Below are positions 3,853 to 12,992 of a stretch of DNA of 15,704 nt, one piece after another. Every line of letters starts with the position of its first letter. Within the stretch, counting starts at the first letter, position 1. Under the pieces are notes generated by a model that worked only from the letters and a program-made list of their open reading frames with translations, did not search any database and was not told the origin of the DNA. This DNA is from a virus. Its lineage: Duplodnaviria; Heunggongvirae; Uroviricota; Caudoviricetes. Both the position numbers and the translations under genes were made by a program. The stretch lies in the IMG/VR virus record IMGVR_UViG_2703718817_000007. One strand, 5' to 3'.

Positions 3853-4848
3853 TCAGGCCAGCACACCAATCGCCAGTGCGCGATCGATAAAACGAAATAT
3901 CAGCTCCAGCTGGGAGCCATACTTCTCTTCAAATGCCACGGTATCCGCATGCAGCTCGTCGTGATGCTTTCTGCACAAAGGCAACACAAAAAGGTCATGC
4001 GCTTTTGTACCCATTCCCCCCTGACCGTGGCCTATCAGGTGGTGGGGATCATCAGCAGGTTTTCCACAACATGCGCACGGCTGCGTCTTAACCCAGCGCG
4101 TGTACTTTTCATTAACCCAGCGGTGACGTTTTGGGCGTAACATAAAAGACTCCGGCGACTCCGGATCCACTTTCAGCGCCAGCACCTTTTTCGCCTTATC
4201 CTGGATGATGCTGGTGGCAGGAACCGAAGGCACAAGGTCACTTTCCCGGGTAACAGACGGCACAACAGGCTTCGGTAATCTCAGTGCCTTACGGGCTGCA
4301 CTTTCCGGTAAGGCATCCGCCAGATCATTACGAATCAGCCACCAGCACAGTTCCGGCATTGTCACAACATGACTGTCATCAAAACCGAGATCCCGACGCA
4401 CAACAGACAACACCCAGCGGGCACAGTTATCCGTTGCCATTGATTCCAGCCGTTCCGTGAACTGATCGCGCAGCTGGTTATCGCAGTGCCAGCACAGACG
4501 GATTGCGCCCGGAGCGTGTCGCATTGTTGTCATGTTCTCGCTGTGCCAGTCGGAATGAGGCCACTGGCAGCCTTTTTCACGAAGTAACCAGCTTTCAAGA
4601 CATTCCACGCCACCAGCACGACGGATCACTGCCTCATTGCGGAACACGGCCCGAACGGCAGGATCATCCGCCAGCGGTTGTGATGCCGCCGGAACGGCAC
4701 CACTGGCGAAAGATGAATAACGTTCCGGCTCAGGCTCCAGCAGGACACGCCCCTGCATAAACAAGGGCATCAGCTCTGAACCTGGTCTGAACAATACGAT
4801 CCCCATACGCGGGGCAATTTCAGGGGTCAGTAGTGCTCTCACGGTCAC
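3853..4848 (-). CDS. Phage protein with C-terminal Cys/His-rich HNH-like motif (DUF968-like by recollection); function unknown
   Basis: ORF track 3853..4848 (GTG start overlapping the upstream stop; an alternative ATG at the RMGIVLF codon exists). C-terminus [43 protein letters not shown] has paired Cys and His-His motifs. Family name is from memory, unverified. Confidence 0.5.
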
Positions 4849-8976: not shown

Positions 8977-9542
8977 GCGTTAGTTTCTCCACAACCAGAA
9001 GCAATCGACGCCACGACGCCCGGAGCTGCACACTCGCGGGCGTCATTACTTTCTGAAATGCAAAAAATTTTGTAGACAAGTGCTGCATGCTCCTGCAGCT
9101 TCGAAATTGAGAGATACAGCTCGTCGTTAATTGCTGTCTTCTCATGCGGTTCCACTACACCGTCTTCGATTGCTGAACGAATCTGTTTTGAATAACTGCC
9201 GATCTGTTCAATGACTTCCAGCAGACGCTGGTTAATATCGGCGTTGTCCACATCCTCGACGTCAGGAAGAGACACAAAGACGCCATTTGCAGACTGCGCC
9301 ACAGCATCAGCAATGAAATGAGTGCCACCAGCACGCTGTAAAACCATTGCCCATCCCAGCGGGAAAATCTGATCGCCATCTGCACGAAGGCGGTTGAATA
9401 AAGCGTTTTCTGTTACATCGAGCCAGTCAGCCGCTTCAGCGTAACCACCCGGCAACGCCGCGATAGTTTTTCTGACAGCTTTCACGTACCACTCAGGCTG
9501 TTTTTCTATTTTCCAGTGATGCTTACCCACGATTAGCCTCAT
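8973..9542 (-). CDS. cII-position regulatory protein (HTH-containing; resembles the phage CII / CP76-type family by architecture), 189 aa
   Basis: ORF track 8973..9542. Directly downstream of cro; HTH-like segment [21 protein letters not shown]. Family assignment is from recollection of 186-CII-like proteins and is uncertain. Confidence 0.45.
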
Positions 9543-9573
9543 CGTTCTGTGGTTAAAAATTGAAAGTGTTCTG

Positions 9574-9774
9574 CTAATCTTTCGGATAGATATCCGGTCT
9601 TAAGTCAGATTTCGTAATTGCACCTGACGTGCATTGCTCAAGTTTTTTAGCCAGCACAAAACTGGCTTTTTTATAGCCATTGAAAACCAGCCGTAAGTAG
9701 CCAGGTGTTGAGCCAACTTTTCCGGCCAACTCGCCCTGCTGTTCTTTGGTTAAAGAGTCCCAATACGCTTTCAT
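9574..9774 (-). CDS. cro: Cro-like HTH repressor (YdaS/Cro-type), 66 aa
   Basis: Internal ATG at 9772-9774 of the long ORF 9574..10077, preceded by GGAGGT; product MKAYWDSLTKEQQGELAGKVGSTPGYLRLVFNGYKKASFVLAKKLEQCTSGAITKSDLRPDIYPKD. The upstream 300 nt of the long ORF is antisense to cI and is rejected. Divergent from cI across the operator region. Confidence 0.7.
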   Translation of the reverse strand: MKAYWDSLTKEQQGELAGKVGSTPGYLRLVFNGYKKASFVLAKKLEQCTSGAITKSDLRPDIYPKD

Positions 9775-9777
9775 ACA

Positions 9778-9864
9778 ATATGTACCTCCGGTATACATAT
9801 TACATGATTGAAATGAACCTTCAAGATACTTGTACCTTAACGGTACAAGGGTTTTAATTTCGTT
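9778..9864. promoter_or_regulatory. Immunity-switch operator/promoter region (OR): palindromic operators with divergent pR-like and pRM-like promoters
   Basis: Perfect palindrome CTTGTACC-N5-GGTACAAG at 9829-9849; imperfect ATATGTACC-tcc-GGTATACATAT at 9778-9800. Minus-strand promoter TTGAAG (9819-9824) -16- TAATAT (9797-9802) feeds cro. On the plus strand a TTTAAT-like -10 at 9852-9858 sits about 7 nt before the cI ATG, suggesting a leaderless cI mRNA. Confidence 0.6.
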
Positions 9865-10539
9865 ATGAAAACAATCCATGACATCCGGCGGTCTAACGCC
9901 AGAAAACTGAGAGATGGTGTTGGCGGGAATTCTTCCTTTGCCACTATGATTGATCGCGAGCCAACCCAGACCAGCAGGTTTATGGGAGATGGTGCTACTA
10001 AAAATATCGGTGACAGCATGGCACGACACATCGAAAAATGTTTCGACCTGCCTGTCGGATGGCTCGATCAAGAACACCAGACAACGAACATCACAAAAAA
10101 ACCTGATGTTTCAATCACTAATAAACAAATCACATTAGTCCCTGTCATATCATGGGTACAGGCCGGAGCATGGAAAGAAGTTGGATATTCTGAGGTTGAT
10201 TTGAGCACAGCAGAAACGTATCCCTGCCCTGTACCCTGTGGGGAAATGACTTATATCTTGCGGGTGATAGGTGATTCAATGATTGATGAGTACCGCCCGG
10301 GAGACATGATTTTTGTCGATCCTGAAGTACCTGCCTGCCACGGTGACGACGTTATTGCATTGATGCACGATACAGGTGAAACCACCTTCAAAAGGTTGAT
10401 AGAAGATGGGACACAGCGTTATCTCAAAGCGTTAAACCCAAACTGGCCTGAGCCTTACATTAAGATCAACGGTAATTGCTCTATAATTGGAACTGTGATT
10501 TTCTCAGGAAAACCAAGAAGATACAAAATCAAAGCCTAA
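9865..10539 (+). CDS. cI: CI-type prophage repressor (N-terminal HTH plus C-terminal LexA-like S24 peptidase domain), 224 aa
   Basis: ORF track 9865..10539, ATG start. C-terminal domain has GDSM (Ser nucleophile), ..TFKRLI.. (Lys) and VQAG linker motifs as in lambda cI/LexA. Confidence 0.85.
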   Translation: MKTIHDIRRSNARKLRDGVGGNSSFATMIDREPTQTSRFMGDGATKNIGDSMARHIEKCFDLPVGWLDQEHQTTNITKKPDVSITNKQITLVPVISWVQAGAWKEVGYSEVDLSTAETYPCPVPCGEMTYILRVIGDSMIDEYRPGDMIFVDPEVPACHGDDVIALMHDTGETTFKRLIEDGTQRYLKALNPNWPEPYIKINGNCSIIGTVIFSGKPRRYKIKA

Positions 10540-10551
10540 TCAATGTTTATG

Positions 10552-10576
10552 AACCTGCTTCGGCAGGTTTTTTTAT
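10552..10576 (+). terminator. Intrinsic terminator after cI
   Basis: Stem aacctgc (10552-10558) / gcaggtt (10563-10569), loop ttcg, followed by tttttat (10570-10576); 13 nt after the cI stop. Confidence 0.7.
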
Positions 10577-10578
10577 AC

Positions 10579-10610
10579 TTGACAATGTACCTTTGGGATA
10601 CATAATGTAC
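10579..10610 (+). promoter_or_regulatory. Strong sigma70-like promoter with embedded operator half-sites; candidate pL/OL
   Basis: TTGACA (10579-10584) -16 nt- CATAAT (10601-10606). ATGTACC at 10585-10591 and 10604-10610 with GGATACAT between them resemble the OR half-sites (TTGTACC/ATGTACC). Confidence 0.5.
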
Positions 10611-10690
10611 CCAAGAGAAACAACAAACAGGCAGGACGCCCACGAAGTAGCCGCCTGGAGCATATGAAGTCTAGGATGATTCATTAGCAA

Positions 10691-10718
10691 CAAAAAAGCG
10701 CCCTACAGGACGCTTAGC
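10691..10718 (-). terminator. Intrinsic terminator for the minus-strand moron gene
   Basis: On the minus strand: aagcgucc / gggcgcuu stem (one G-U pair), loop ugua, followed by uuuuguug. The plus strand has an A-run before it, so it should not stop plus-strand transcription. Confidence 0.5.
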
Positions 10719-10728
10719 TCTTTAACAA
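10717..10728 (+). promoter_or_regulatory. boxA-like element (exact match to the rrn boxA core GCTCTTTAACAA), about 105 nt downstream of the pL-like promoter
   Basis: gctctttaacaa at 10717-10728 on the plus strand; followed by a 6-bp hairpin gcaatc-taca-gattgc at 10749-10764 (boxB-like position). May alternatively be part of the cassette boundary repeat. Confidence 0.4.
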
Positions 10729-10747
10729 TCTGGATATCCACAACAGT
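10726..10747. repeat. Left arm of an inverted repeat bracketing the moron gene
   Basis: caatctggatatccacaacagt; core aatctggatatcc is the exact reverse complement of 11294-11306 (ggatatccagatt), with extended similarity (..caaca..) beyond the core. Confidence 0.6.
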
Positions 10748-10753
10748 AGCAAT

Positions 10754-11245
10754 CTACAGATTGCCGTTAAGTTTTCTGGACAACTCCTCAATGGATGGAG
10801 GCGATACGTAATCCGGATTTTTATTCATCAGAAACTTATTTTCACAGTGGAGGCACCTGCTTTTATGAAAAAGCTCATCTTCGCTAACCGGGAATGGTTG
10901 AAGTATCGATACTATCTTTTGTCCAAAACATTTTGGGCAAAGATGCATGGTTATGCTGCCACCGTTCACGATTACCTCCTTCGAGTATACAAAAGTACCC
11001 GACTCAAGTTGGTTAAGGATATAGCCTTCCGTCTGAGCCTCAAAGTTTTCGAATTCTGCAATTTTAGCTTTGAGAGAAGCATTTATTTCTTGATAAGAGC
11101 CCACCAGTTCAACGAGAGACACGCATTCGCGCTGAATAGACGCAAGCTTTGAGTTCAGCTCACCAATAGCCGCATTTACTTCAGCTTGAGTTTTTGCCTC
11201 GTTCATTAGTTTTGCAATCTGGGCTGTTTCACGAATAGCCGTCAT
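10754..11245 (-). CDS. AT-rich moron gene: hypothetical protein with N-terminal coiled-coil-like region and C-terminal CxxC..CxxC zinc-ribbon, about 163 aa
   Basis: ORF track gives 10754..11533, but the first 96 codons are Arg/Pro-rich GC-rich sequence that overlaps the repeats and is unlikely to be coding; the ATG at 11243-11245 begins MTAIRETAQIAKLMNEAKTQAEVNAAIGELNSKLASIQ.. and ends ..HLCPKCFGQK..(24 aa)..CLHCENKF.. The ATG has no clear SD, so the start is uncertain. Base composition is clearly more AT-rich than flanking phage DNA. Confidence 0.5.
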   Translation of the reverse strand: MTAIRETAQIAKLMNEAKTQAEVNAAIGELNSKLASIQRECVSLVELVGSYQEINASLKAKIAEFENFEAQTEGYILNQLESGTFVYSKEVIVNGGSITMHLCPKCFGQKIVSILQPFPVSEDELFHKSRCLHCENKFLMNKNPDYVSPPSIEELSRKLNGNL

Positions 11246-11283
11246 TGCTGCCGTTAATTCAGCGATCACATTGAATACTCTTA

Positions 11284-11329
11284 TTGTTGTTGGGGATATC
11301 CAGATTAACCGAATCCTTGTTGTTGGGGA
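11284..11329. repeat. Right arm of the moron-bracketing inverted repeat plus a 13-bp direct repeat
   Basis: ttgttgttgggga occurs at 11284-11296 and again at 11317-11329; the first copy runs into ggatatccagatt (11294-11306), the reverse complement of 10727-10739. Confidence 0.6.
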
Positions 11330-11557
11330 ATAACCAGGTCCACCTCGCCTGATGTGGCTAAAAGCAGGCACATAACAGCTAAGTATTTTCAACCAGAGAG
11401 AATCCTTAGCGTTGTGGTGAATGCGGCTCAGCGCACGCGGGTTAAGGTTGAGGCTGACAGTCGACCTTCTGTGGATACCCACCCGCCTGGTGTGCAACCT
11501 TCGCCAGGCACCGGGAGGCACCCGGCACCACAACTTTATGCTGTGTGTAGTCCTGGC

Positions 11558-11592
11558 GGTACCAGTTTGTACCCTTGCTTCCGGCTGGTACC
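11558..11592. promoter_or_regulatory. Operator-like GGTACC palindromes upstream of the early-left operon
   Basis: GGTACCAGTTTGTACC at 11558-11573 (contains TTGTACC, the OR half-site) and GGTACC at 11587-11592. Confidence 0.35.
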
Positions 11593-11603
11593 GTCCTTTT
11601 TTG

Positions 11604-11690
11604 CAAAACAGAGAAGAGCATCACCGGACGACGGGCTCATAACCCAATCCATCCGGGCGGCTGCCACCGCAGGTGTTCTTCTCTGTTTTG
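11604..11690 (+). other. Large structured element: 14-bp perfect inverted repeat plus 4-bp extension enclosing a GC-rich loop of about 60 nt, 50 nt upstream of the yfdP-like start
   Basis: caaaacagagaaga (11604-11617) pairs with tcttctctgttttg (11677-11690); cacc (11622-11625) pairs with ggtg (11672-11675). Preceded by a T-run (11595-11602) but not followed by one on either strand, so it is not a canonical terminator. A second small hairpin gacc-ttgcag-ggtc lies at 11704-11717. Confidence 0.5.
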
Positions 11691-11739
11691 TGGAGAAACC
11701 AACCGACCTTGCAGGGTCGATATGATGAGGAGCAGCAAA

Positions 11740-12102
11740 ATGGCTAGCGAACGCAGTACTGATGTGCAGGCATTTATCGGGGAGCTGGACGGCGGCGTAT
11801 TTGAAACCAAAATCGGCGCAGTTCTCAGTGAGGTCGCTTCCGGTGTGATGAACACGAAAACCAAAGGGAAGGTCTCACTCAATCTGGAAATCGAACCGTT
11901 TGATGAGAACCGTGTGAAAATCAAACACAAACTCTCATATGTTCGCCCAACTAACCGCGGGAAAATTTCCGAAGAAGACACCACCGAAACGCCGATGTAT
12001 GTCAATCGCGGTGGTCGGCTGACTATTCTGCAGGAAGACCAGGGACAATTACTGACTCTTGCCGGTGAACCTGACGGAAAACTCCGCGCAGCAGGTCGTT
12101 AA
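11740..12102 (+). CDS. yfdP: YfdP-like hypothetical protein (first gene of the early-left operon), 120 aa
   Basis: ORF track 11575..12102 is the TTG-extended form; ATG at 11740 follows GAGGAG. Length and position (before a 274-aa gene) match CPS-53 yfdP as recalled. Confidence 0.55.
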   Translation: MASERSTDVQAFIGELDGGVFETKIGAVLSEVASGVMNTKTKGKVSLNLEIEPFDENRVKIKHKLSYVRPTNRGKISEEDTTETPMYVNRGGRLTILQEDQGQLLTLAGEPDGKLRAAGR

Positions 12103-12167
12103 TATCGTTCGTAATAAACTGATTATTTATCTCATCACTGAATATCTTTATATAGTGAGGACTTATT

Positions 12168-12992
12168 ATGTCTCAGAACTTAGACGCAACCGCAATTAAT
12201 CAAATCCATGCCCTTATTTCTGCTCAGGGTGTTAATGAAATTATCAGTAAGATTGGTGCCGATGCTGTGGCATTGCCTGAGAATTTCCGCATTCATGATC
12301 TGGAAAAATTTAATTTAAATCGCTTCCGTTTCCGTGGTGCACTTTCCACTGCCAGCATCGATGATTTTACCCGTTATTCTAAAGATCTTGCAGATGAAGG
12401 CACCCGCTGCTTTATCGATGCCGATAATATGCGTGCCGTCAGTGTGCTTAACCTGGGTACTATTGATGAGCCAGGTCACGCAGATAACACTGCCACTCTC
12501 AAACTGAAAAAGACAGCACCGTTCTCTGCTCTGTTGTCTGTTAACGGCGAGCGTAACTCCCAGAAGTCACTTGCAGAATGGATCGAAGACTGGGCCGACT
12601 ACCTTGTGGGCTTTGATGCTAATGGTGACGCTATTCAGGCAACAAAAGCGGCTGCGGCAGTCCGTAAAATCACGATTGAAGCAAACCAGACCGCTGATTT
12701 TGAAGATAATGACTTCAGCGGCAAACGCTCCCTGATGGAGTCTGTCGAAGCGAAGACCAAAGACATTATGCCAGTGGCATTTGAATTTAAATGCGTTCCG
12801 TTTGAAGGTCTGAAAGAACGTCCGTTTAAATTACGCCTCAGCATTATCACTGGCGATCGTCCTGTACTGGTTCTGCGCATTATTCAGCTGGAAGCGGTGC
12901 AGGAAGAAATGGCTAACGAATTTCGTGATCTGCTTGTTGAGAAATTCAAAGACAGCAAAGTAGAAACCTTTATTGGTACTTTCACCGCCTGA
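12168..12992 (+). CDS. yfdQ: YfdQ-like protein (DUF2303-type by recollection), 274 aa
   Basis: ORF track 12168..12992, ATG with GAGGA SD. Length identical to K-12 YfdQ; gene order matches CPS-53. Confidence 0.6.

What the first reader, a model, noticed from the sequence alone, without database searches (positions are those of the whole stretch)
10726..11329. AT-rich moron gene in the immunity region is bracketed by a 13-bp perfect inverted repeat
The only gene between cI and the early-left operon is on the opposite strand to the pL-like transcript, is more AT-rich than the surrounding phage DNA, and encodes a protein with a coiled-coil-like N-terminus and a CPKC..CLHC zinc-ribbon that I cannot place in a known family. 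It is bracketed by aatctggatatcc (10727-10739) and its exact reverse complement (11294-11306), and has its own minus-strand terminator. This looks like a self-contained cassette inserted where lambda carries rexAB/sieB, making it a candidate superinfection-exclusion, defence or regulatory gene. The inverted repeats could be recombination sites, insertion scars or regulator-binding sites.
Basis: seen in the sequence. Interest (0 to 1): 0.8.

Follow-up and report, generated by a model that had tools for sequence, protein, structure and literature searches.

The report
Rip1-like prophage defence gene cassette
The gene is a relative of Rip1, a recently described prophage protein that kills infected cells when it senses a rival phage's packaging ring, and it sits backwards in a swappable "accessory gene slot" of lambda-like phages whose matching flanking repeats are conserved more strongly than the genes they enclose.

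Summary
A perfect 13-bp inverted repeat (19 bp with one mismatch) brackets a minus-strand gene with its own terminator. The real CDS is 171 aa (GTG at 11269), not 163 aa. AT-richness is mild.

The gene lies antisense to a cI-controlled pL-like promoter, in the position where lambda carries sieB, behind a sieB-type leader.

The inverted repeat belongs to the slot, not to this gene. At least six unrelated cassettes occupy the slot, and several show arm sequences changed in step on both sides. The arms are not transposon ends, and no inverted cassette was found.

The left arm overlaps a 17-mer containing an exact rrn-type boxA. The same 17-mer occurs in the T7 early leader.

My best reading of the repeat, at about 0.4, is a long-range RNA helix in the early-left transcript, next to boxA, that loops out the antisense cassette.

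Gene: new member of a known kind. Slot architecture: possibly undescribed.

The parts
9865..10539 (+). cI-type repressor (LexA/S24 peptidase family), followed by its terminator at 10551-10570
   Evidence: Pfam Peptidase_S24 E 1.5e-26. Annotated cI in the identical phage PhiR49_1. Terminator scan.
10579..10622 (+). pL-like early-left promoter (TTGACA-16-CATAAT, 10579-10606) overlapped by two operator-like sites (10586-10602, 10606-10622)
   Evidence: 11/12 match to the sigma-70 consensus. TGTACC-N5-GGTACA sites here match three copies in the cI-cro intergenic region at 9781-9847.
10622..10685 (+). Leader of the early-left transcript, conserved even in phages that carry other cassettes (SfV, SfII, mEp460, ST64B)
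   Evidence: blastn breakpoints.
10686..10715 (-). Intrinsic terminator of the cassette gene (stem 10696-10715, then a T run on the minus strand)
   Evidence: Terminator scan, 8 pairs. Conserved in most relatives.
10717..10733 (+). boxA 17-mer GCTCTTTAACAATCTGG on the pL strand. 13 consecutive nt match the rrn boxA-spacer, and the 17-mer is identical to one in the T7 early leader
   Evidence: Exact match at 10717-10728. rrn sequence from PMC2724277 Table 1. T7 leader sequence printed in PMC11863960. The same 17-mer lies 25-60 nt downstream of strong promoters in many unrelated phage contigs. The 23-nt trailer (arm core plus GTTAAAGAGC) averages 95% identity to the window's trailer in relatives with 40-68% protein identity.
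10727..10745 (.). Left arm of the inverted repeat (AATCTGGATATCCACAACA). It overlaps the last 7 nt of the boxA 17-mer and lies 9 nt beyond the stop codon
10754..11269 (-). Rip1-family gene, 171 aa, GTG start. Two long N-terminal helices (residues 2-24, 28-79) plus a beta-rich C-terminal domain with a 4-Cys zinc ribbon (C111, C114, C139, C142)
11288..11306 (.). Right arm of the inverted repeat (TGTTGGGGATATCCAGATT). On the minus strand it forms the second CCCCAACAACAA repeat of the gene's 5' leader, 19-37 nt upstream of the start codon
11311..11369 (-). sieB-type leader. It has a first repeat/hairpin (minus strand GGACCTGGTTATTCCCCAACAACAAGGATTC) and a conserved block (minus strand GCCTGCTTTTAGCCACATCAGGCGAGGTGG, 11340-11369) able to form two interlocked short helices
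   Evidence: Homologous to the region just upstream of lambda sieB, HK620 hkaP and HK446 rip1. The 105-nt leader averages 87% identity to the window's leader in relatives whose CDS is 74% identical to the window's.
11381..11604 (+). STnc100/PasD-like structured RNA region on the pL strand, between the cassette and yfdP
   Evidence: Rfam RF02076: 40.3 bits (gathering score 47), E 5.5e-7, full model length.
11740..12102 (+). yfdP, first annotated gene of the early-left operon (followed by yfdQ/DUF2303 and an HD-domain gene)
   Evidence: PHROG 204. Annotations of PhiR49_1 and E. coli genomes. Pfam.

Best explanation
The window comes from an SfV/CPS-53-like lambdoid phage. It is 100% identical to Escherichia phage PhiR49_1 over 10540-11740.

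Between cI and the early-left operon lies a slot for accessory genes. It corresponds to the place where lambda carries sieB and uses a sieB-type 5' leader. Here the slot holds a 171-aa member of the Rip1 family.

By homology (inferred), the protein is made in the lysogen. When another phage infects, the zinc-ribbon C-terminal domain would dock on that phage's small-terminase or portal ring. The N-terminal amphipathic helices would then assemble into a membrane pore. The cell dies before the intruder matures.

The gene points against a cI-repressed pL-like promoter. Induction of the resident phage would therefore send transcription antisense through it. This probably helps to switch it off (inferred).

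The inverted repeat is not specific to this gene. It flanks every cassette found in this slot, and its two arms change in step.

The left arm overlaps an rrn/T7-type boxA 17-mer on the pL strand. I therefore propose that the arms pair in the early-left transcript. The resulting long-range helix next to boxA would loop out the untranslated antisense cassette. The layout resembles the boxA-plus-processing-stem arrangement of rRNA operons and the boxA-plus-RNase III site of the T7 early leader. It would let early-left transcription and RNA maturation proceed whatever cassette is inserted.

Confidence by step: Rip1-family membership about 0.9; defence function about 0.65; helix in the pL transcript about 0.4.
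For: Family:
- Family profile vs PDB sequences hits only Rip1 (9oox) significantly: E 5.4e-17 over residues 6-151.
- BLASTP vs HK446 Rip1 gives E 4e-11; vs JBD30_030 it gives E 9e-20.
- tblastn finds the Pseudomonas Mu-like phages (DMS3, JBD30, D3112 orf25) and HK620 hkaP.
- The four Cys align with the C-x2-C...C-x2-C of Rip1.
- Rip1 biology is taken from the review PMC13434031.

Slot and orientation:
- The pL-like promoter is overlapped by operators that match the OR copies.
- Lambda sieB, HK620 hkaP, HK446 rip1 and JBD30_030 all lie antisense to their neighbours.
- The leader is homologous to the region upstream of lambda sieB.
- Every intact cassette in the slot has its gene on the minus strand.

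Repeat:
- It is present in Citrobacter, Scandinavium, Symbiopectobacterium, Edwardsiella, Buttiauxella and Kosakonia relatives with 49-62% protein identity.
- Flanks are more conserved than the gene. Identity to the window averages 95% (trailer) and 87% (leader) against 74% for the CDS.
- Unrelated cassettes carry matched arms, for example AATCTGGATGACT / AGTCATCCAGATT.
- On 54 distinct arm pairs, 89.8% of cells pair. 11 pairs (26 cells) changed on both sides, against 5.3 (8.4) in shuffles. 0 of 500 shuffles reach this, and slid controls pair at 20-47%.
- The helix appears in the minimum-energy and centroid folds of both strands.

boxA: exact 12-mer. The 17-mer sits behind strong promoters in many phages.
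Against: - No experiment exists on this protein. It shares only 27-29% identity with characterised Rip1 proteins. The primary paper (Patel et al. 2026) was not available, so Rip1 biology rests on a review.
- No consensus sigma-70 promoter was found for the gene.
- The strand on which the arms pair is not settled. G-U-compatible differences favour the pL strand by cells (76 vs 16). By distinct kinds of change the split is 15 vs 9, which is not significant. The count is also confounded, because mostly the left arm varies.
- The inner part of the arms (positions 14-19) is often unpaired.
- The arm core is conserved in sequence as well as in complementarity. That also fits a protein-binding or DNA-level role.
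- Arms that are specific to a cassette type are explained more simply if the arms travel with the cassette.
- No 'empty' slot or short ancestral hairpin was found.
- The slot loci were collected with AATCTGG/CCAGATT as anchors. Pairing at positions 1-7 is therefore partly by construction.
Confidence: 0.6

Rival explanations
1. The arms pair in the sense mRNA of the cassette gene. The 5' UTR, just upstream of the Shine-Dalgarno sequence, would pair with the 3' UTR just before the terminator. This closes the message into a loop that stabilises it or tunes its translation in the lysogen.
For: - Every cassette shares the same leader and trailer, and both arms lie inside the predicted sense transcript.
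- The helix is in the minimum-energy and centroid structures of the sense RNA.
- The covariation is equally compatible with Watson-Crick pairing on this strand.
- In lambda and HK620 the equivalent second leader element is a local hairpin, which in HK620 contains the Shine-Dalgarno sequence.
Against: - Fewer differences are G-U-compatible on this strand (16 cells against 76).
- A whole clade carries AATCCGG upstream with CCAGATT downstream. That is a C-A mismatch in the sense RNA but a G-U pair in the pL RNA.
- In SfIV/Kati a plus-strand ORF lies between the minus-strand gene and the left arm.
- This model does not explain why the left arm is fused to an exact boxA on the other strand.
Confidence: 0.2
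2. The arms act at the DNA level. They could be recombination sites, terminal repeats or insertion scars through which cassettes are exchanged, inserted or inverted.
For: - Each cassette type has its own matched arms with a common outer end. This is what terminal inverted repeats look like.
- Homology with SfIV/Kati breaks inside or at the arms, at 10733 and 11286.
- Independent rearrangement junctions fall inside the left arm. One is a 6.8-kb deletion joining 10735 to 3949. Another is a break after GGATATC in L017.
- The core GGATATCC is a palindrome, so a direct target duplication would look like an inverted repeat.
Against: - Breakpoints against other relatives lie outside the arms: 10685/11340 and 10717/11377.
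- The cassette was found only in this slot, always with boxA and the leader attached.
- None of the more than 140 loci has the gene inverted relative to leader and trailer.
- No recombinase or transposase lies in or beside the cassette.
- No empty site was found.
- The deletion junction shows only short microhomology.
- AATCTGG is part of the boxA 17-mer in phages that have no right arm at all.
Confidence: 0.15
3. The arms, together with the related first leader repeat, are binding sites for a dimeric DNA-binding protein from the host or the phage. That protein would regulate the cassette or loop the DNA around it.
For: - The 13-nt core is conserved in sequence, not only in complementarity.
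- Each arm is close to a 14-bp palindrome, TCTGGATATCCAGA.
- There are three copies of a related motif: two direct copies upstream and one inverted copy downstream.
Against: - Cassette types with quite different arm interiors (GATGACT, TTATTCC) would each need a different protein specificity.
- The same arms occur in prophages with different repressors, for example RacR-type in EDL933 and cI here. The immunity repressor is therefore excluded.
- The operators of this phage have a different sequence.
- No candidate regulator is linked to the slot.
Confidence: 0.08
4. The protein is not a defence effector. It would be a small zinc-ribbon regulator, such as an anti-repressor or transcription factor, that happens to share a fold with Rip1.
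For: - The gene lies in the immunity region.
- PADLOC (2023) gives no hit.
Against: - The sequence homology to Rip1 covers the full length and is specific. The next PDB match has E 0.12.
- Relatives sit in non-regulatory positions, for example between the terminase genes in Pseudomonas phages.
- PADLOC predates the description of Rip1.
Confidence: 0.07

Closest known systems
Rip1 (ring interacting pore 1), prophage-encoded pore-forming anti-phage protein (Patel et al. 2026, Nature 651:1060; PDB 9oox, phage HK446 Rip1)
   Same: - Full-length sequence homology and similar size (171 vs 164 aa).
- N-terminal long helices plus a C-terminal beta-rich domain with C-x2-C...C-x2-C.
- Top structural match.
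- Prophage-borne single gene, oriented against the surrounding lytic operon.
   Different: - Only 27-29% identical to the characterised proteins. It represents a separate enterobacterial clade (PHROG 1244).
- It sits directly next to cI/pL behind a boxA, rather than after N (HK446, HK620) or between the terminase genes (Pseudomonas phages).
- The bracketing inverted repeat is absent from HK620, HK446 and JBD30.
- Its trigger and activity are untested.
Lambda/P22 sieB superinfection-exclusion locus
   Same: - Same position in the early-left region and the same antisense orientation to pL.
- Homologous 5' leader block (GCCTGTCTTTTAACCACATCAGGCTCGGTGG followed by two CCCC(A/T)ACA-containing repeats).
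- Expected to be expressed from the prophage.
   Different: - The protein is unrelated. There is no Pfam SieB match, whereas lambda SieB matches at E 1e-29.
- Lambda has local hairpins in the leader and neither a long-range repeat nor a boxA trailer.
rrn operon leader (boxA followed by the 5' strand of the long-range 16S RNase III processing stem) and the T7 early leader (boxA followed by the R0.3 RNase III site)
   Same: - 13 consecutive nt identical to the rrn boxA-spacer, and the 17-mer is identical to T7.
- It lies about 100 nt downstream of an early promoter.
- It is immediately followed by one strand of a helix whose partner lies hundreds of nucleotides downstream.
   Different: - The enclosed segment is an antisense protein-coding cassette, not a structural RNA.
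- No RNase III cleavage or Nus-factor dependence has been shown here.
- That rrn and T7 carry RNase III sites at these positions is recalled from established knowledge, not tested here.
Morons of lambdoid phages (autonomous promoter-gene-terminator units inserted between conserved genes)
   Same: - A single gene with its own terminator.
- Replaced by other genes in close relatives.
- Opposite strand to its neighbours, and slightly lower GC.
   Different: - It occupies a structured, reusable slot with conserved leader, trailer and matched arms, not an arbitrary intergenic insertion.
- Its own promoter was not identified.

Membership tests
Rip1 family | Significant sequence similarity to an experimentally characterised Rip1 | tested here: met
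   Profile A1 vs PDB sequences: 9oox_L E 5.4e-17, query 6-151 vs chain 16-160. BLASTP E 4e-11 (HK446_037) and 9e-20 (JBD30_030).
Rip1 family | Architecture: N-terminal helical (amphipathic) half plus a C-terminal ring-binding domain with a four-Cys zinc ribbon | tested here: met
   AlphaFold model pLDDT 88: helices 2-24 and 28-79, then six strands. C111, C114, C139 and C142 are invariant in 23 homologues and align with the Rip1 cysteines. Amphipathicity was only crudely checked by hydrophobic moment.
Rip1 family | Fold similarity to the solved Rip1 structure | tested here: met
Rip1 family | Encoded by a prophage as a stand-alone gene | tested here: met
   Lambdoid phage context. Present in 383 of 5426 complete E. 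coli genomes as the full cassette. Antisense to its neighbours, like HK446_037, hkaP and JBD30_030.
Rip1 family | Anti-phage activity triggered by oligomeric small terminase or portal, with pore formation | not testable with these tools
   Needs phage challenge, escape mutants, and liposome or microscopy assays. Known only for other family members (review PMC13434031).
SieB superinfection exclusion protein | Protein homology to SieB (Pfam PF14163) | tested here: not met
   No SieB hit for the window protein. Lambda SieB scores E 1e-29 in the same library. Only the slot and the leader are shared.
Moron | Own terminator, and presence/absence or replacement among close relatives | tested here: met
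   Terminator. SfIV, Kati, SfV, SfII, mEp460 and ST64B carry other DNA between the same flanks.
Moron | Own promoter | tested here: inconclusive
   No minus-strand sigma-70 consensus site in 9500-12200. A conserved sieB-type leader is present, but the transcription start is unknown.
Transposon-like or site-specific mobile cassette with terminal inverted repeats | Element boundaries coincide with the outer ends of the repeats, with target duplication, occurrence at several unrelated sites, and a linked recombinase | tested here: not met
   Breakpoints at 10685/11340, 10717/11377 and 10733/11286. Found only in this slot. No recombinase. No empty site. No inverted copies.
boxA-type (rrn/nut-like) antitermination site | boxA consensus sequence located in the leader of a transcript, downstream of its promoter | tested here: met
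   GCTCTTTAACAA exact at 10717-10728, about 104 nt after the start predicted from the pL-like promoter. rrn boxA-spacer ugcucuuuaacaauuua (PMC2724277). The same 17-mer follows strong promoters in many phages and in T7.
boxA-type (rrn/nut-like) antitermination site | Nus-factor-dependent read-through; for lambda-type nut sites, also a boxB hairpin and an N protein | not testable with these tools
   No N-like gene was recognised in the early-left operon of the window. The function needs genetics or in vitro transcription.

The most novel reading that the evidence does not exclude
Lambdoid phages of this group maintain a plug-in slot for anti-phage and other accessory genes, placed antisense inside the early-left transcript. 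The slot is framed by an rrn/T7-type boxA and a co-evolving long-range RNA helix. Together these would work like an rRNA-style processing and antitermination device. The helix would loop out, and perhaps excise through RNase III, whatever antisense cassette is inserted. Early-left expression would then be insulated from the cargo. On induction, transcription through the cassette would also silence the resident defence gene.
Probability: 0.3. Interest if true: 0.7.

Novelty: new member of a known kind. Interest (0 to 1): 0.55.

Why it matters
The gene adds a widespread enterobacterial clade to the newly described Rip1 pore-forming defence family. The full cassette is in about 7% of complete E. 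coli genomes and in at least ten other genera. It also ties the family to the classical sieB position of lambdoid phages.

The non-coding frame around the gene is better conserved than the genes it holds, and it is shared by at least six unrelated cassettes. This points to a defined hotspot where unknown defence or exclusion genes can be harvested. The ECs1072 family, small membrane proteins and a secreted LprI-like protein are examples.

If the boxA-plus-helix reading is right, it explains how a phage can carry backward-facing cargo inside an essential early operon without polarity. It would be a phage use of the rRNA-operon strategy.

Tried and rejected
- Rfam at gathering thresholds found nothing in the window. 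The permissive scan gave only a sub-threshold STnc100 match outside the cassette.
- Pfam, NCBIfam and PADLOC gave no meaningful hit for the protein.
- I looked for a sigma-70 promoter for the gene and found none. Reading the leader by eye gave no convincing -10/-35 either.
- The transposon/terminal-repeat idea was rejected because of the breakpoint positions, the single genomic context, and the absence of inverted copies and empty sites.
- I looked for an ancestral 'empty' slot in the viral contig collection and found none. The other allowed the boxA 17-mer within 30 nt of CCAGATT.
- A second boxA on the pR side (9747-9758, 2 mismatches) is at chance level.
- I tried to decide the pairing strand from G-U asymmetry. 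The result is suggestive by cells but not by independent kinds of change, and it is confounded.
- The 6.8-kb deletion joined inside the left arm (L034/L115) turned out to be a single microhomology event, not evidence for site-specific recombination.
- The primary Rip1 paper could not be retrieved.
Full report
**What is there**

Over 10540-11740 the window is 100% identical to Escherichia phage PhiR49_1 and about 99% identical to PhiR29_1/2. The flanks match the SfV, SfIV, SfII, mEp460, ST64B and CPS-53 group of lambdoid phages.

The local order is as follows.
- cro lies on the minus strand.
- Three operator-like sites TGTACC-N5-GGTACA lie at 9781-9847.
- cI is at 9865-10539 (Peptidase_S24), followed by its terminator at 10551-10570.
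- A strong sigma-70 promoter on the plus strand is at 10579-10606, an 11/12 match. Two more copies of the same operator motif overlap it, at 10586-10602 and 10606-10622.
- That promoter is therefore a repressor-controlled pL. Its transcript runs rightwards towards yfdP (11740), yfdQ (DUF2303) and an HD-domain gene.
- The finding lies between pL and yfdP, on the opposite strand.

**Check of the observation**

The 13-bp repeat is exact and extends to 19 nt with one mismatch, at 10727-10745 and 11288-11306. The core GGATATCC is itself palindromic.

The ORF is real, but its start was misplaced. Fifty-six homologues, mostly 170-175 aa, begin MIAEL.... This corresponds to GTG at 11269 with an AAGAG Shine-Dalgarno sequence. 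The CDS is therefore 10754-11269, 171 aa.

The minus-strand terminator is confirmed, with a stem at 10696-10715 and a T run. Four cysteines are invariant.

AT-richness is modest. The CDS is 42.8% GC against 47.5% for the window, the 16th percentile, and close to cI and cro.

**What the protein is**

Pfam, NCBIfam and PADLOC are silent. PHROGs places it in family 1244, of unknown function (E 2e-58).

An AlphaFold model built on 23 homologues (pLDDT 88) shows two long helices, at residues 2-24 and 28-79. A six-stranded domain carrying the zinc ribbon follows.

The relationship is also visible in sequence. The family profile matches the Rip1 chain at E 5.4e-17 over nearly the full length, and the next hit has E 0.12. 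Pairwise BLASTP gives 27% identity to HK446_037 (E 4e-11) and 29% to JBD30_030 (E 9e-20).

tblastn also recovers DMS3, MP42, JBD69 and D3112 orf25 in Pseudomonas Mu-like phages. It also recovers HK620 hkaP, which was annotated long ago as a 'putative superinfection exclusion protein'.

A 2026 review (PMC13434031) describes Rip1. It is a prophage protein that is harmless alone. Phage small-terminase or portal rings activate it. Twelve Rip1 monomers ring an 11-mer terminase. The N-terminal amphipathic helices form a pore, and the C-terminal half contacts the ring. The cell lyses prematurely. I could not obtain the primary paper, Patel et al. 2026.

Family membership is therefore well supported. 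The defence function of this particular protein is inferred.

**Where it sits**

The roughly 105 nt upstream of the gene are homologous to the region just upstream of lambda sieB (34394-34464), HK620 hkaP and HK446 rip1. All have a block GCCTGTCTTTTAACCACATCAGGCTCGGTGG followed by two repeats containing CCCC(A/T)ACA.

In all these phages the gene points against the early-left (or, in JBD30, the late) operon. This is the sieB slot with a sieB-type leader.

I found no consensus promoter for the gene.

**The inverted repeat is a property of the slot**

I collected 146 loci encoding relatives of the protein, with 80 distinct flank combinations. They came from species genomes, viral contigs and metagenomes.

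The repeat is present in Citrobacter, Scandinavium, Symbiopectobacterium, Edwardsiella, Buttiauxella, Kosakonia and Klebsiella relatives with 49-62% protein identity.

I compared the window with 43 relatives at 40-68% protein identity. Mean identities were:

| Region | Mean identity to the window |
|---|---|
| 105-nt leader | 87% |
| 23-nt trailer (arm core plus GTTAAAGAGC) | 95% |
| Coding sequence | 74% |

The non-coding frame is therefore better conserved than the gene.

Close relatives that lack the gene carry other DNA between the same flanks. Their homology breakpoints are at 10685/11340 (SfV, SfII, mEp460), 10733/11286 (SfIV, Kati) and 10717/11377 (E. coli O157:H7 EDL933). In EDL933 the cassette sits in a RacR-type prophage. 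None of these breakpoints coincides with the outer ends of the arms.

I then searched viral contigs for the 17-mer that contains the left arm's outer part. The slot turned out to hold at least six unrelated cassettes. All intact ones have their gene on the minus strand behind the same leader. They are:
- Rip1-like genes;
- the ECs1072 family;
- membrane proteins of about 150 aa;
- a secreted protein weakly similar to LprI;
- an 87-aa ORF;
- a 98-aa ORF.

Their arms match each other, and in several types they differ from the canonical sequence on both sides. Examples are AATCTGGATGACT / AGTCATCCAGATT, and TTATTCC in both arms of the most divergent Rip1-like locus.

On 54 distinct arm pairs, 89.8% of cells pair. 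Eleven of 19 positions show changes on both sides (26 cells), against 5.3 positions (8.4 cells) in shuffles. None of 500 shuffles reaches this, and slid controls pair at 20-47%.

Two caveats apply. Positions 1-7 are partly fixed by how the slot loci were found. The shuffle test also ignores relatedness. Positions 14-19 are often unpaired.

**The link to boxA**

On the pL strand the left arm overlaps the 3' end of GCTCTTTAACAATCTGG (10717-10733). Its first 13 nt equal the rrn boxA-spacer ugcucuuuaacaauuua (PMC2724277).

The whole 17-mer is identical to the T7 early leader just upstream of gene 0.3. That sequence is printed in PMC11863960.

In many unrelated phage contigs the same 17-mer sits 25-60 nt downstream of strong sigma-70 promoters and has no right-arm partner. 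AATCTGG therefore belongs to a boxA element of the pL-strand transcript. The right arm is complementary to it and to the adjacent cassette-specific bases.

From established knowledge, not tested here: in rRNA operons boxA is followed by one strand of the long-range RNase III processing stem that encloses 16S rRNA. In T7, boxA is followed by the R0.3 RNase III site.

The arrangement here has the same logic. There is a promoter, then boxA, then one strand of a helix whose partner follows 350-840 nt later. The enclosed segment is an untranslated antisense cassette that would otherwise invite Rho-dependent polarity.

Both strands fold with the arm helix in their minimum-energy and centroid structures. 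Differences between the arms are more often G-U-compatible on the pL strand (76 cells against 16). By distinct kinds of change the ratio is 15 to 9, and the count is confounded because mostly the left arm varies.

I therefore prefer a helix in the early-left transcript, at about 0.4. Pairing in the sense mRNA, a DNA-level role and protein binding remain live rivals.

**Arguments against a mobile-element reading**

- The breakpoints are misplaced, as described above.
- The cassette occurs in only one genomic context.
- No recombinase is linked to it.
- No inverted copy is seen in more than 140 loci.
- No empty site was found.
- Junctions inside the left arm do exist. The SfIV/Kati breakpoint falls there, as does a break in L017. 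A 6.8-kb deletion also joins 10735 to 3949 by microhomology. The arm may therefore be a fragile or recombination-prone spot.

**Verdict**

The defence-gene interpretation is supported by homology to a family described only in 2026.

The gene itself is a new member of a known kind. The slot architecture is a sieB-type leader, a boxA trailer and matched arms that co-vary across unrelated cassettes. I did not find it described in the papers I could search, and it deserves experimental follow-up.

Noticed in passing
window 11381-11604 (+): The GC-rich conserved stretch between the cassette and yfdP matches Rfam STnc100 (RF02076) over the full model. The score is 40.3 bits, just under the gathering score of 47, with E 5.5e-7. 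STnc100 was recently grouped with the prophage PasD sRNAs (bioRxiv 10.64898/2026.05.13.724894). The stretch ends in a hairpin plus U run, so early-left transcripts must read through it to reach yfdP.
   Followed up: partly
window 11340-11369 (-); also lambda 34394-34464, L028 (HK620), L029 (HK446): A 30-nt block (minus strand GCCTGYCTTTTAACCACATCAGGCKMGGTGG) precedes very different prophage genes: lambda sieB, HK620 hkaP, HK446 rip1, SfIV_36, and an unannotated minus-strand ORF in SfV. It can form two interlocked short helices (GCCTG/CAGGC and CCAC/GTGG). It may be a portable promoter or 5'-UTR element. Its function and transcription start are unknown.
   Followed up: partly
In many of them it lies 25-60 nt after near-consensus sigma-70 promoters of unrelated phages, including T7-like early leaders. 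This suggests a widely shared extended boxA signal.
   Followed up: partly
L166, L173, L210, L215, L171, L217 (slot loci): The same slot carries other small uncharacterised genes. They include the ECs1072 family (NF033230), membrane proteins of about 150 aa starting M(D/N/T)RDD..., a secreted protein with a weak LprI match, and 87- and 98-aa ORFs. All are candidate exclusion or defence genes.
   Followed up: partly
L034, L115 vs window 3949 and 10735: Some prophage copies have a 6.8-kb deletion. It removes the replication genes, cro, cI and pL, and joins the left repeat arm to window position 3949 through a short GGATA/CC microhomology.
   Followed up: partly
window 10754-11482 (-); PV340568.1: The deposited annotation of the identical phage PhiR49_1 calls a 242-aa protein from a GTG at 11482. 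It also calls two tiny ORFs nearby. Comparison with homologues shows that the real start is GTG 11269 (171 aa). The extension would read through the conserved leader.
   Followed up: yes
window 11421-12102 (+); L003 2998-3678: In SfIV and Kati, yfdP is annotated as a 226-aa protein that starts inside the STnc100-like region. In the window that frame is interrupted, giving a 73-aa ORF at 11421-11642. This points to a frameshift difference or an over-extended annotation in the relatives.
   Followed up: no
L027 (E. coli K-12 e14 prophage): The e14 prophage matches the flanks of this region at about 90% identity. It has ymfJ, ymfI (minus strand) and ymfH in place of the cassette. It lacks both the boxA 17-mer and the arm motif.
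   Followed up: no
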